Positions 12,257 through 33,246 of a stretch of DNA of 64,000 bases are shown one piece after another. Position 1 is the first letter of the stretch; each line of letters starts with the position of its first letter. The translations under genes and the position numbers were made by a program. The stretch spans positions 355,756,001-355,820,000 of the forward strand of contig OZ024741.1 in the NCBI GenBank assembly GCA_964016885.1, written 5' to 3'. Under the pieces are notes generated by a model that was not told the DNA's origin, made no database searches, and was given only the letters and a program-made list of their open reading frames with translations. This DNA is from Eledone cirrhosa. Taxonomy: Eukaryota.

Positions 12257-12395
12257 TAACAAATATGAAAAAATGTAAATTGGCTGCTATGGTAATGCTG
12301 GATACACACCACATGGCGAATTGTGTCATATGGAATAATTTCCAGTCTCCAAGCTGAAGAATGATTTTATCGATGTTCTCTGTCAACGGTTCAAT
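12257..12395 (-). CDS. SLC22-like first coding segment, copy B (start position reads ATT; possible pseudo-exon)
   Basis: (I)EPLTENIDKIILQLGDWKLFHMTQFAMWCVSSITIAANLHFFIFV + A|gtaagt; phase-1 donor fits the exon at 3607; aligns without gaps to 32288-32426. Confidence 0.8.
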
Positions 12396-13008
12396 GATGT
12401 CCTGAGTGTCTCACTTTCAACAAATACTGACCAGAAATACAGTCAAACTAATATGTAAAGTGTTTGATAAGAGATCTTACATAAGAGATAAGAGATACTC
12501 CCACAATAGAGGAATGTATATGCTAATGAAATTATTGTGATATGCTAGGAGTATAAAAATGATTTGGTTGACTTACCAAGTAAATATGTATTATGTGTGT
12601 GTATGTGTGGATGTTTGTGTATGTGTGTGTGTGTGAGGATGTGCGTGTGTGCGTGTACGTTTGCATATATATGAATGCATGCCTATATATATATGTATAT
12701 ATATATAGTATTTGTGTGTGTGTGTGTAGGTGTGTGGATGTCAGTGTGTACGTATATATACATGTGTGTGTATGTGTGTGTGTGTGTGTGCGTGTGCGTG
12801 TGTGTGCGTGTGCGTGTGTGTGTGTTCAGGATCTGTTACAGGTTTGTGTGACTGACCGTTGCCTAAAAGTGCTCCAAATTCTGTAACCAGATAAGCGATT
12901 GCAGTACTCTTAGCAGTGTATGGATGTCAGTGTGTGCGTATTATATATATATATACGCAAAAGAATTAATGAAAGAGTTACAAGCCGTTAAAACATATCT
13001 TTATAAAG

Positions 13009-13047
13009 CTCTTACTTATGTTTCGCCCAGTGGGGCTCGTCGGAGGC
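13009..13047 (-). ncRNA. Degenerate minimal hammerhead ribozyme motif
   Basis: Minus strand: gcct-CCGACGA-gccc-cact-gggc-GAAA-cataag-TA-agag; perfect stem II, core U4 changed to C. Confidence 0.55.
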
Positions 13048-13261
13048 GGATATTGAAGGCAAGGTTTTTAATTATAGACCCTAATAGGGTAAAATAATAG
13101 TTATATATCACAGTGAATATTAAATTTAAATGTCAAACGTGAAAGGAGTGTAGTTTGCTAAGGGAGGTAATTGCAGTGCAAGTATAAAGTTTACTGTCTA
13201 ACTTATGCTCATTACCTCTTCTTTCTATCCTTTTTTTACGATAAACTATTATTTGCTTTGA

Positions 13262-13662
13262 CGCATAGAGTTACGGCCCTTGTCATTATGAGTTCAAATC
13301 ACGCCGAGGTTAACTTTGCCTTTCATCCTTACAGGGTCGATAAAATAAAGTACCAGTAATACACTGGGTATTTGCTAGCCTTGTGCCAAAAGTATTATGG
13401 GGTCGATAAAATAAAGTACCAGTAATACACAGGGTAATTGCTGGCCTTGTGCCAAAAGTAGAAACAATTATTATATAGGATTGGCAGTATCGGTAGAGAG
13501 TCGGACGCCATGCTTTGCAGCAAAGAGTTACGGCCCTTTATGATCTGAGTTCAAATCGTGCCGAGGTTAACTTTGCCTTTCATCCTTACGGGGGTGATAA
13601 AATAAAGTACCAGTAATGCACTGGGTAATTGCTGGCCTTGTGCCAAAAGTAGAAACAATTAT
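13262..13662 (+). mobile_element. Chain of three family A SINE copies, two 5'-truncated
   Basis: ggtcgataaaataaagtaccagtaat...gccttgtgccaaaagta occurs three times; A box tggcagtatcgg and B box gagttcaaatc in the last copy. Confidence 0.9.
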
Positions 13663-13673
13663 TATATATATAT

Positions 13674-29365: not shown

Positions 29366-30821
29366 AGTATAGGTACTTAAATTTCGTTGGGTTATTCACC
29401 TTAACTCATTCAGCGTGAGATACAATTAAAAATGGCTTCCCACAAACGCCTAATCAAGTACGGGTAGACGATTGTCTTGATACCAGTGACGAAAAGGACA
29501 GACGGGGACAAAAAAGACAAAGAAAATCAGGGAAAGAAGAGTGGATAGAAAAAAAGAGAGAGCAGGGACGTAAAGATAGGTAAGTAAATAAAGCTGACTG
29601 ACTGGTGCCCACATCTAGGTCAACTTTGCCAGTGCCTTTCTGGTGATGGTAAATATATATGTATATAATTATATAGGTATGTATATATGTATACGTACAT
29701 ACATATATGTATACAGACGTACAGTAGTATGTATATATATACCTACATGCACACATATATATATGCATGTATCGGTTTACCGAACATTTATTATAATGCT
29801 CGGTTTGTTTGTTTGTAAACAAACAAACAGCCCGAATTACGCCGTGCAGTGTTTAGGCAAACCAAGTCACCTTTTTGTTCAACACTGACACAGGAACGAT
29901 GTACTAGTTTCAAGCTTATTAGCTATCGGTCAACATCGTATACCTTCCTGCCAGATGGTTGAACGTCTGAAAGTATATACTTTCCTTATGCATATTAATG
30001 GCTGAGCAGCCTAATTTGCATATCGAGTGAGTTCAGTCGGCCGGGCACACCGAAAACGATAAATGGAATAGAATGAAACGAAATTTCATTTCTCACTCTT
30101 AATACGGCACTTACTTAAATGTAAGTATGTATGTATGTATACGTACATACATATATGTATATAGACGTACAGTAGTATGTATATATATGCACGTATCGGT
30201 TTACCGAACATTTATTATAATGTTCGGGCTGTTTGTTTGTAAACAAACAAACAGCCCGAATTACGCCATACAGTGTTTAGGCAAAGTAAGTGCCGTACTA
30301 AGAGTGAGAAACGAAATTTCGTTTCATTCTATTCCATTTATATATATATAAATAAACAACAAAAATCAGTAATATGGAATTACAATTCTGATAAATAAGA
30401 ATAAAAATATTTTGACAAGCTATCACCGAAAATATGCGTCATTTCAGCTGGTGCAATTGTAGCGTCATCTTTGAAAGCATATAGAGTGTGGAATATTGCC
30501 CGTGAATACAAAAGGTATATAATTGTTTCTACTTTTGGCACAGGACAACAATTATCTCAGTGTATTACTGGTACTTTATTTTATCGACCCCGTAATGATG
30601 AAAGGCAAAGTTAACCTCGGCGGAATTTGAACTAAGACCATAAAGGGCCTATAATATACAAACAATTGAATCAATCTCTCTCTCTCTCTCTCTCTCTCTC
30701 TCTCTCTCTCTCTCTCTCTATATATATATATATATATATATATATATATATATATATATATATATACACACAGAGCGTGAAGACGGACTGACAGACACGG
30801 CTCTTATAATATAATATAGAT

Positions 30822-32262
30822 TATTTCTTTATTGGCCATTAGGGCTGAAACATAAAGCATGATACAAAAGCAAGGACAGTGGGATTTATATAAGACGTCT
30901 AAAAATATAACTGGTAACATTTAACAAAATATAACAATAAAACTCCCCAATAGGGAGTAGTACCACCCAGGAGTAACTTAGAAATCCCACAGATCCTAAA
31001 CCACCTTAATCTCCAAGAGCACGAACAGAAGGTTCCCCTCTCTTCTCCAAACTCTCCAGCCTACAGGCGCTTGGTCAGAGTAGACCTATTTACTCGGGTC
31101 ATCCTCTCTACATTCTCCCAGATTTTAACTAATGTACCCGGAGGGAAGCAGTGGAACTTGAAAAAGTTGATGAGCGCTTGGCCGAAAAAAAGAAAGTGTC
31201 AATCTTCAGTCCTTTCAGCCGCGCCCACTACACAACCTCTTTTGCTACAGTCACCAAACAAGACAACAGCCTCTCCCCACCGTCCAAAAGAAGGCGGCGG
31301 GACGATCTTCATGATAGAGTTGGTTGATAGCCAGATCCGTCGTACACGCCATAATAGCTGTTCGACAAAACTCCACTAATCAGCAATGCTTGGATACTGG
31401 ACGAATGTGTGCAGAACGGTTTCATTGCTCTGCGCGCCTCTCGGACAGGTCTGTCTGACAGCACTTCCGTGCCTGTAGAGTTTGTTTCAAACCGGCTGTG
31501 CCCCCAGTAGCACTGCCAAGCCAGAGATTTCTGGAAATTATCCATAGTCTCTGGCTCAAAGTTCTCCGGAACAGACTGGTTAGTTCAATTGTGTCGACGC
31601 CCAGAGTTTCTCCGAGGCCATCGTTGTTCTTGCCTCCCACTAGTCCTCTATAGAACACTAGAGAGGAATTTACACTGACCACATTGCCCGTTTGGCCCGA
31701 TGTGAGCACCTAACAACATTCACGAGGCCAGGCGCCAAGTTTAGGTCTTCGCTTGACCCATGACTGCAGCATAGTTAACGAGACGAGCTGCAGAAAGACC
31801 TCTCTTACAAACGGCGATCACACCTGTCCACCGTTTGGGGAAATCTGCAAATGTCATAGCCTCAGCGCATGTTTGCGCATCATCAGCCATGGCATGCCCA
31901 GCACACCATGTAGAGGGCGTCGGCTACAAATTGCTCGCCTCCCCAATGGAAGCTTTCCCGTCCACAGAAAGCTGAAGAGCAGGTGCTCCAATCTGTTGAA
32001 GAGCGAACAGAGGCAAGGTACGCCGGTCATGCTGTAATAGATTATAGAAGCGATGTATGCGTTCAGCACCGCTACCAGACGTTTCAGGGATTGCATCCTC
32101 TCGGTCCATTTCTGGATGTGAGTGGCCACTTTGCTCGTTACCTCGTCCCAGTTCTTATCCACCTGGAGGTCTAGACCAAACCAGACCCCAATAAGTTTCA
32201 CCGGTCCGTCTATCTGTCCAGCGTCAAACGAGGCTGTTGAACGGCATGGATTTACCTCTCTC
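30822..32262 (-). mobile_element. Decayed, 5'-truncated Tx1/L1-like LINE (post-RT region, Zn-binding domain, 3' UTR)
   Basis: GPVKLIGVWFG, RLEHLLFSFLW, GMPWLMMRKHALRL, MDNFQKSLAWQCY; homologous to 50589-51690; 3' end aataaagaaat. Confidence 0.88.
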
Positions 32263-32287
32263 GAAAAGATAAAAGTAGACAACTCAC

Positions 32288-32426
32288 CACTGAAGATGTA
32301 AAAGTTGAGATTGACTGACCCTACAATTGCTGTGAAACACCAGAGCAAGAACTGCGACGTGTGAAAATATCCTCTTGTTCCAAGACCAGTCATAATATAG
32401 TCCACATTAACTGAAGCAGACGACAT
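32288..32426 (-). CDS. SLC22-like first coding exon, copy A (intact ATG)
   Basis: MSSASVNVDYIMTGLGTRGYFHTSQFLLWCFTAIVGSVNLNFYIFS + G|gtgagt, resembling the SLC22 N-terminal D..L..LG..G.F. pattern; strong acceptor ttcctcttccttttccag ending at 32469 implies an upstream non-coding exon. Confidence 0.85.
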
Positions 32427-33246
32427 TCTTTTCGTGTTATTTTGCAATTTCAATCGAAATCTGATGCGCTGGAAAAGGAAGAGGAAAAGAAAATGGTTAT
32501 TATTAGTTAGCCAACTGGACATTTCAACCGTAATCCTCCCATCTGATCTTTCAAGCTCAGTATAGTTACAAATATATACTCCATTAAGTCCTTCTCTTTT
32601 TGAAACGACGGTGTGATTTAAGGAAAAAATGGCTACTATTTCTAAGCGGTCGTGTGAGAATCTAGTAGTCCCCATGTAAGCTTGAGATTTAGTATAAGGC
32701 TGGAAGTTGTAAGCAAACAATAATATTTCCATTGAAACTGAGCCAGCGTGGGAGTCTCTATGAGGTCGTTTGATCTGCTAGAAAATCGAACAATGCGTGA
32801 CGAAGAGGGTCAATGAGACCAGTGGAGGCAAAAACAGAGTAGATAACACGCAGAGTGGAAAAAGTCGCCTAGCAATAATTGTTTCTACTTTTGGCACAAA
32901 ACCAGCAATAATCCCAGTGCATTACTGATGCTTTATTTTATCGACCCCGTAAGGATGAAAGGCAAATAACGAGGCGACAAAATCATATAATGAAAGAGGA
33001 GAATATAACGGTAAAAGAGGTGAATAACTCAACACGAGGAGGAGTGGGCGCCATGCTTGTCACAGATAATACTGAGACTGCGTAAATGTGTATATAAATT
33101 TACACATATTTCGTCTAAAGACGTGTAAACATATCAAATAAACCTATTTCCCCGAAAAATGATAAAGACCTTTTACAAGTTTTCAAGCCTAGTTGGACTT
33201 TCATTAGTGTGCACCTATATAATCTAATCAACCACAAGGAAATATG

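What the first reader, a model, noticed from the sequence alone, without database searches (positions are those of the whole stretch)
12257..32468. Two paralogous first coding exons, 20 kb apart, upstream of one shared set of SLC22 exons
Seen: 32426-32288 and 12395-12257 are both 139 nt, align without gaps (MSSASVNVDYIM..LG..FH..QF..WC...NL.F.IF vs IEPLTENIDKII..LG..FH..QF..WC...NL.F.IF) and end in phase-1 GT donors. Either splices in frame to the exon at 3607. I found no other SLC22-like exon between them, and splicing A to B via the two visible AGs hits stops. Known: variable-first-exon loci exist (UGT1A, clustered protocadherins). Inference: alternative N-terminus/TM1 cassettes for a transporter, or one exon is a relic of a deleted tandem paralog. 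Both are stop-free despite strong divergence, which suggests both were under selection.
Basis: partly seen in the sequence, partly recalled or inferred. Interest (0 to 1): 0.75.

Follow-up and report, generated by a model that had tools for sequence, protein, structure and literature searches.

The report
Octopus transporter with two front ends
An octopus gene for a small-molecule transporter carries two old, very different copies of its first coding exon ahead of one shared body, and predicted genes of related octopuses use one or the other, so the gene likely could swap its first membrane helix, although here the second copy lacks its normal start codon and may be fading.

Summary
Two 139-nt paralogous exons (A 32426-32288, B 12395-12257; 17/46 aa identical) lie before one intact nine-exon SLC22 body in an octopod genome; either gives an open 585-codon frame. 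Across 804 kb there are 7 exon-1 copies but 5 of every other exon. The orthologous gene models differ: O. sinensis and O. vulgaris join an A-type exon (36/46 identical to A) to this body; O. bimaculoides joins a B-like exon (19/46 to B). Their bodies are 90% identical but their first exons only 14/46, so two front ends likely predate those species. B keeps 10 of 13 family-conserved sites and a consensus donor, which long neutral drift rarely gives. No exon-1 junction was seen in RNA. Verdict: an old N-terminal tandem-exon duplication that swaps the N-terminal helix and TM1; A is likely the working form, B a fast-evolving alternative that is now shortened or decaying here. Known kind of arrangement; not found in print for SLC22.

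The parts
32288..32426 (-). Coding exon 1A (46 codons + 1 nt): ATG, N-terminal cytoplasmic helix and TM1 of the SLC22 transporter; donor GTGAGT
   Evidence: frame, donor; 36/46 identical to the first exon of O. sinensis XP_029643217.1 and O. vulgaris CAI9730410.1
32427..32468 (-). 42-nt stretch 5' of the ATG of exon A, starting at a strong splice acceptor (polypyrimidine tract + AG); A is therefore likely an internal exon after an unlocated upstream exon
   Evidence: acceptor score 15.4 vs median 10.3 of 44 real acceptors and 99th background percentile 8.7; paralogue first exons and B have nothing above 7.5 within 330 nt
12257..12395 (-). Coding exon 1B (46 codons + 1 nt): paralogue of A; ATT at the family start position (12395-12393), first in-frame ATGs at codons 23 (12329) and 28 (12314); consensus donor GTAAGT
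   Evidence: 19/46 identical to the first exon of O. bimaculoides XP_014773907.2; groups with it in trees
3399..3607 (-). Shared coding exon 2 (large extracellular loop)
   Evidence: a 151-nt contig of run X4 matches 3399-3505 and leaves the genome exactly at the donor
2916..3146 (-). Shared coding exon 3 (TM2-TM4 region). Exons 4-10 lie beyond the window at G000:C2:355733357-355710815 (minus strand), one set only
   Evidence: Pfam Sugar_tr/MFS_1; a 151-nt X4 contig leaves the genome at the donor 2916

Best explanation
This is one intact octopus SLC22 (organic ion transporter family) gene with two old duplicate copies of its first coding exon in front of a single body, and the two copies were likely kept as alternative front ends that would swap the N-terminal helix and the first membrane helix. 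Shown: both exons are in frame with the one body; the body is the orthologue of genes modelled with an A-type front in O. sinensis and O. vulgaris and with a B-like front in O. bimaculoides. Inferred: transcripts that come through A splice from its donor straight to exon 2 and skip B, which has no strong acceptor; transcripts that start between A and B use B's donor. Inferred from vertebrate SLC22 structures: TM1 forms part of the extracellular gate and ligand pocket, so the two forms would differ in affinity or selectivity (the position matching OCT1 F32 is Gly/Ala in A-type and Ile in B-type). In this animal A is likely the main full-length form; B has ATT in place of ATG, so it would give a protein starting at ATT or at codon 23 (just before TM1), or it has recently begun to decay.
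For: One body only: 7 exon-1 copies vs 5 of each of exons 2-10 in 804 kb; open 585-codon frame with either exon. Body orthology: groups with O. bimaculoides, O. sinensis, O. vulgaris (90/86), sister to three Argonauta genes (100/99*). O. bimaculoides vs O. sinensis: body 194/214 identical, exon 1 only 14/46, while three other orthologue pairs of the cluster have 42, 41 and 45 of 46. Trees: A + O. sinensis 90/86, B + O. bimaculoides 88/41 and 96/93* with Argonauta left out; A+B as a clade rejected (p-AU 0.008, 0.042, 0.044); A, B and both orthologue exons form one clade 95/93* apart from the other cluster genes. Selection on B: keeps 10 of 13 family-conserved sites, open frame and GT; neutral drift gives that in 6.5% at 0.2 and 1.1% at 0.3 substitutions/site, 0 of 4000 at 0.5; B/O. 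bimaculoides mismatches are more conservative than in about 99% of stop-free neutral runs at matched divergence (1.4% of 362 at 0.4). ATT sits in a strong start context, ATC-ATT-G, matching I-M-E in O. bimaculoides. TM1 role: exon 1 aligns to OCT3 5-52 and OCT1 4-50 without gaps; TM1 passages in PMC10643130, PMC10567722, PMC5054527. A young exon-1-only duplication in the neighbouring gene shows the mechanism works in this cluster.
Against: No exon-1 junction was observed in RNA for either exon. B lacks ATG; all 15 comparison exons and the O. bimaculoides exon have Met there. The neutral test cannot exclude recent loss (35% at 0.1, 65% at 0.05 substitutions/site), indels were not modelled. B and the O. 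bimaculoides exon are long branches: support for their pairing falls to 62/0 under the mixture model with Argonauta in, with long-branch warnings, and O. bimaculoides + O. sinensis as a clade is not rejected there (p-AU 0.086); only 8 sites are shared by B and O. bimaculoides alone against 6 and 7 for the other patterns. No single species has models with both fronts: the exon-1 profile found 3 proteins among 1118 candidates, one front each. The orthologue evidence is gene prediction, whose read support I could not see. The alignment to OCT1 is weak (E 0.52).
Confidence: 0.65

Rival explanations
1. Relic of a deleted tandem paralogue: two whole genes once stood in tandem, the upstream one lost its body, and each lineage now uses only one of the two leftover front ends (A here and in O. 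sinensis/O. vulgaris, B in O. bimaculoides), without regulated choice between them.
For: The locus is a tandem SLC22 cluster of five genes. B groups with the Argonauta first exons (93/90; 96/93*), as the body groups with the Argonauta bodies, so B may be the body's native front and A the survivor of a sister gene. Every annotated orthologue shows one front only. B has no ATG here.
Against: No remnant of exons 2-10 between A and B or upstream of A. The common ancestor of O. bimaculoides and O. sinensis/O. vulgaris must still have held both fronts usable on the same body, which is itself the two-front arrangement. B shows constraint on this lineage. Placement of the Argonauta exons is not resolved (p-AU 0.274 for the alternatives).
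Confidence: 0.2
2. B is a long-dead pseudo-exon; the O. bimaculoides model is a prediction that picked an independent or equally dead copy because the true A exon is missing from that assembly or annotation.
For: B lacks ATG; B-type branches are long (0.41-0.85 vs 0-0.25 for A-type); the O. bimaculoides model is also cut short at 389 aa, and its second isoform starts with LINE-like sequence, so that locus may be poorly assembled.
Against: Both B and the O. bimaculoides exon keep the same nine core residues (L15, G16, F21, H22, Q25, C30, N39, F42, F45), a hydrophobic TM1, exact length and phase; neutral drift to their divergence leaves an open frame with GT in about 7% and such conservative changes in about 1% of those.
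Confidence: 0.1
3. Assembly artefact: two genes with near-identical bodies were collapsed, or a haplotype copy was placed in tandem.
For: The region is 82% repeat between A and B; the cluster has a near-identical exon-1 duplicate in the neighbouring gene.
Against: No N gap in the window and only one in 804 kb, far away; A and B are 50% identical in DNA, far from alleles; each of three other Octopus species shows one such body with either front.
Confidence: 0.03

Closest known systems
N-terminal tandem-exon-duplication-derived substitutions (39 of 236 human cases; PMC8373072, passages and supplement search read)
   Same: Homologous 5' coding exons in tandem, one of which is joined to a shared body; old and conserved across species.
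   Different: No SLC22 case in that paper's text or supplement (0 hits). Here substitution is seen only across species' gene models, and B has lost its ATG.
Variable-first-exon clusters UGT1, GCNT2, protocadherins (PMC1885805, passages read)
   Same: Similar exons of equal length and frame in tandem before common constant exons; the variable part bears on ligand recognition; birth and death of variable exons, with relics.
   Different: Only two small exons 20 kb apart, each coding 46 residues (one helix of the pocket) rather than a whole domain; A has a strong acceptor and so is probably not a promoter-proximal first exon; B lacks ATG.
Transporters with duplicated mutually exclusive exons: SLC12A1/NKCC2 exon 4a/b/c, SLC7A2, SLC25A3 (named in PMC8373072 passages; the effect of NKCC2 exons on ion affinity is recalled, not read here)
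   Same: One transporter gene swaps a short homologous, membrane-helix-coding segment.
   Different: Those are internal exons with acceptors on both copies; B has no strong acceptor and the swap is N-terminal.
Vertebrate SLC22 transporters OCT1-3, OAT1, URAT1 (PDB sequence matches)
   Same: Same family and fold by sequence (best E 1.7e-31); exon 1 covers the N-terminal helix and TM1, which form part of the intracellular bundle, extracellular gate and pocket (PMC10643130, PMC10567722, PMC5054527 passages).
   Different: About 25-30% identity; belongs to a cephalopod-specific expansion; substrate unknown; I found no report of duplicated first coding exons in vertebrate SLC22 genes.

Membership tests
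SLC22 (MFS organic ion transporters) | Sequence homology to OCT/OAT/URAT over an MFS body with a large loop between TM1 and TM2 | tested here: met
   Orthologue P0003 matches 25 solved SLC22 sequences at E<=1e-10; Pfam Sugar_tr and MFS_1; intact 585-codon frame
SLC22 (MFS organic ion transporters) | Transport of organic cations, anions or zwitterions | not testable with these tools
   needs uptake assays
Variable-first-exon clusters (UGT1/GCNT2/Pcdh type) | Tandem similar exons of equal length and frame before one set of constant exons | tested here: met
Variable-first-exon clusters (UGT1/GCNT2/Pcdh type) | Each variable exon carries its own start codon | tested here: not met
   B has ATT at the family start; first ATG at codon 23
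Variable-first-exon clusters (UGT1/GCNT2/Pcdh type) | Each variable exon is the transcript's first exon, with its own promoter | tested here: inconclusive
   A has a strong acceptor 42 nt before ATG (15.4), which argues for an upstream exon; B has none (best 7.5 at 287 nt), like the paralogues' first exons; no start-site data
Variable-first-exon clusters (UGT1/GCNT2/Pcdh type) | Each variable exon is spliced separately to the constant exons in one species | tested here: inconclusive
   seen only as one front per species in gene models; no junction reads
[quoted passage not shown]
   E 1.6e-7; A, B and orthologue exons form one clade apart from other cluster genes, 95/93*, 91/87
N-terminal tandem-exon-duplication-derived substitution | Transcripts carry one or the other exon | tested here: inconclusive
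   cross-species gene models only; inclusion of both is blocked by stops or weak acceptors
N-terminal tandem-exon-duplication-derived substitution | Both copies old and conserved | tested here: inconclusive
   A 36/46 to O. sinensis; B 19/46 to O. bimaculoides with long-branch caveats; presence of both copies in one other genome not testable
Strict internal mutually exclusive exons (NKCC2/Dscam type) | Both copies have a usable acceptor behind a shared upstream exon | tested here: not met
   B's nearest acceptors score 2.3 (12426) and -6.0 (12401), below all 44 real acceptors (minimum 3.2)

The most novel reading that the evidence does not exclude
Octopods have kept, for tens of millions of years, one SLC22 gene that makes two transporters by swapping only the N-terminal helix and TM1 gate helix from two promoters: a conserved A form and a fast-evolving B form tuned to other substrates, with B in this species still translated from a non-AUG (AUU) start in strong context or from a newly gained Met just before TM1.
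Probability: 0.3. Interest if true: 0.65.

Novelty: new member of a known kind. Interest (0 to 1): 0.45.

Why it matters
If both forms are made, nature has built the chimera experiment that mapped URAT1 inhibitor affinity to TM1 (PMC5054527): two transporters identical except for 46 N-terminal residues, 63% different, which isolates what TM1 contributes to SLC22 selectivity. It would also be a variable-front-end arrangement in a transporter family for which my searches found none, and it explains why public models of the same octopus gene disagree completely in their first 50-60 residues. If B is fading, the locus is still a clear case of birth, asymmetric divergence and lineage-specific loss of a duplicated first exon, next to a gene where the same duplication has just happened again.

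Tried and rejected
RNA evidence: the run search listed 4 runs, none on record as RNA (no RNA holder listed). Laying them on exons 2-3 gave two X4 contigs that leave the genome at the donors, but X4 has no cover over the 5' end of exon 2, so neither exon-1 junction could be seen; no read result was obtained for exon B, which leaves its expression and the ATT codon unchecked against reads. Structure prediction of the O. sinensis orthologue from a 5-row alignment failed (pLDDT 34.5) and was not used. Back-translation of the O. bimaculoides 13-residue extension onto the DNA upstream of B scored no better than background (P 0.61); an apparent likeness there was dropped. No DNA similarity between the flanks of A and B beyond repeats. 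CpG/GC scan upstream of A showed no clear promoter island; A's upstream exon was not located. Pairwise dN/dS among own exons is near saturation (A-B pN 0.44, pS 0.73) and cannot assign selection to one branch. Search of 50% representatives (150 listed of 3805) and an exon scan of the stored proteins found no protein with two first-exon segments before one exon 2 (P0039 has two, each with its own body). Capture of A from a neighbouring cluster gene: rejected, A groups with B and the orthologues. B as a poison cassette after A: unlikely, as it has no strong acceptor and keeps coding constraint. Pfam does not match either 46-aa exon alone. Literature searches found no paper on octopus SLC22 gene structure; subscription papers are not covered. 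Earlier-findings look-ups were blank.
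Full report
Observation. Both exons are as described: 139 nt, minus strand, gap-free, 17 of 46 residues and 69 of 139 bases identical, phase-1 GT donors, each in frame with the exons at 3607-3399 and 3146-2916 (boundary fixed). Their similarity is beyond chance (E 1.6e-7). The window lies in a 3.0-Gb genome whose closest annotated relatives for this gene are octopuses.

One body, two fronts. 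I stitched 804 kb around the window (one N gap, far away). Per-exon HMMs find five SLC22 genes: exactly 5 copies of each of coding exons 2-10 and 7 copies of exon 1. No remnant of a second body lies between A and B or upstream of A. With either front the gene gives an open 585-codon frame over ten coding exons. The other spare exon 1 belongs to the neighbouring gene and is a 1,091-bp duplicate at 99.2% identity with SINE sequence at its ends, a very young event of the same kind.

Orthologues. The body groups with O. bimaculoides XP_014773907.2, O. sinensis XP_029643217.1 and O. vulgaris CAI9730410.1 (90/86), sister to three Argonauta proteins (100/99*). The O. sinensis and O. vulgaris models begin with an exon 36/46 identical to A; the O. 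bimaculoides model begins with one 19/46 identical to B and 15/46 to A. O. bimaculoides and O. sinensis share 194 of 214 body residues but 14 of 46 in exon 1, whereas three other orthologue pairs in the cluster share 42, 41 and 45 of 46. So two kinds of front end are attached to the same body in close relatives. In exon-1 trees (46 columns) A pairs with O. sinensis (90/86) and B with O. bimaculoides (88/41; 62/0 under the mixture model; 96/93* with the two Argonauta rows left out); A plus B as a clade is rejected (p-AU 0.008, 0.042, 0.044). Against: long-branch warnings, O. bimaculoides plus O. sinensis not rejected (p-AU 0.086; 0.044), and only 8 sites shared by B and O. bimaculoides alone versus 6 and 7 for the other patterns. 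Identical or near-identical rows (O. vulgaris exon, second copy in the neighbour gene) were left out of these trees. An exon-1 profile search found 3 proteins among 1118 candidates, one front per species; cluster look-ups showed no second front (one of three members of the O. bimaculoides cluster was not read). These are gene predictions; I could not see their read support.

Is B alive? It keeps 10 of 13 family-conserved sites that A also has, a hydrophobic TM1 and a consensus GTAAGT donor. Simulated neutral drift (substitutions only) preserves that in 35% of runs at 0.1 substitutions per site, 6.5% at 0.2, 1.1% at 0.3 and 0 of 4000 at 0.5. The body alone has gathered 0.24 amino-acid changes per site on this lineage, so neutral divergence should be larger (inference); B was therefore likely constrained for most of that time, but recent loss is not excluded. 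B-type exons evolve much faster than A-type (end branches 0.41-0.85 versus 0-0.25). B has ATT where all 15 comparison exons and O. bimaculoides have Met, in the context ATC-ATT-G, with a stop six codons upstream; the first ATGs are codons 23 and 28. Met23 is not present in the other exons listed, and a start there would keep TM1 but drop the N-terminal helix.

Splicing logic (inferred). A has an acceptor 42 nt before its ATG scoring 15.4, against a median of 10.3 for 44 real acceptors of this cluster and 8.7 for the 99th background percentile; B and the five other first-exon copies have nothing above 7.5 within 330 nt. So A is probably reached from an upstream exon, while B looks like the family's ordinary first exon. 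A transcript through A would skip B, and a transcript starting 5' of B would use B's donor: mutual exclusion without special machinery. Of 18 AGs near or in B, 13 lead to stops after A and 5 keep the frame but score -9.1 to 4.6.

RNA. Two 151-nt contigs of run X4 (kind not on record, depth about 2) match exons 2 and 3 without differences and leave the genome exactly at their donors, a weak hint that the body is transcribed and spliced. Neither exon-1 junction was observed.

What the swap would change. Exon 1 aligns without gaps to OCT3 residues 5-52 and OCT1 4-50 (weak, E 0.52). In Oat1 the N-terminal part of TM1 joins the intracellular four-helix bundle and Asn35 of TM1 forms the extracellular gate (PMC10643130, passages); in OCT1 residue 36 sets a species difference in fenoterol affinity and F32 lies by bound diltiazem (PMC10567722, passages); TM1 chimeras and residues 25, 27, 35 change URAT1 inhibitor affinity (PMC5054527, passages). 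The F32 position is Gly in A, Ala in O. sinensis, Ile in B and O. bimaculoides; the C36 position is Leu in both A and B. A change in affinity is an inference. PMC10274788 (passages) added nothing specific.

Comparison and novelty. Homologous N-terminal swaps are a known class: 39 human cases (PMC8373072, passages; no SLC22 in text or supplement), and UGT1/GCNT2/protocadherin clusters (PMC1885805, passages). The locus works like these but fails or leaves open their defining tests (own start codon in each exon not met; own promoter and both junctions not shown), so I do not file it as a UGT1-type cluster. Searches found no paper on this gene or on duplicated first exons in SLC22; searches served for comparison (listings and abstracts only, except the papers named above). 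Earlier notes of this scan list 86 duplicated or alternative-exon findings in this genome (unchecked), including an ACE gene with three first exons, so the arrangement is not rare here, which lowers surprise. Verdict: real, old, likely once and perhaps still an alternative TM1 cassette; new member of a known kind; interest 0.45.

Noticed in passing
G000:C2:355923854-355924942 and 355948839-355949929 (loci L006, L007): The neighbouring SLC22 gene has two copies of its first coding exon, 25 kb apart, inside a 1,091-bp duplicate at 99.2% identity (one amino-acid difference) whose ends lie in SINE sequence: a very young exon-1-only duplication, or a haplotype artefact.
   Followed up: partly
P0002 (O. 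bimaculoides XP_052827548.1), residues 1-50: A second modelled isoform of the orthologue replaces exon 1 by a LINE-like stretch joined to exon 2 (weak matches to LINE copies); it would lack TM1.
   Followed up: partly
window 8624-12034 (+): Near-intact LINE (912-aa RT frame and 223-aa zf-RVT frame separated by one stop) starting about 220 bp 3' of B's donor, antisense to the gene; a decayed relative lies at 5548-7598.
   Followed up: partly
window 18639-19673 and 21766-22801: 1-kb inverted duplicate (95.7%) flanking broken RT- and endonuclease-like frames at 19611-21917; looks like a Penelope-type element (label recalled; Pfam blank).
   Followed up: no
window 33990-36734 (+): 914-aa LINE frame with endonuclease, RT and a PHD finger, 1.5 kb upstream of exon A.
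   Followed up: no
P0004 and P0032 (O. vulgaris models): Both O. vulgaris models skip the 231-nt exon 3 in frame, probably an annotation or assembly gap.
   Followed up: no
G000:C3:343502825-343502950 and 343768735-343768860 (-): Two weak, equally scoring exon-1-like matches 266 kb apart in another SLC22 cluster; not examined for a similar spare first exon.
   Followed up: no
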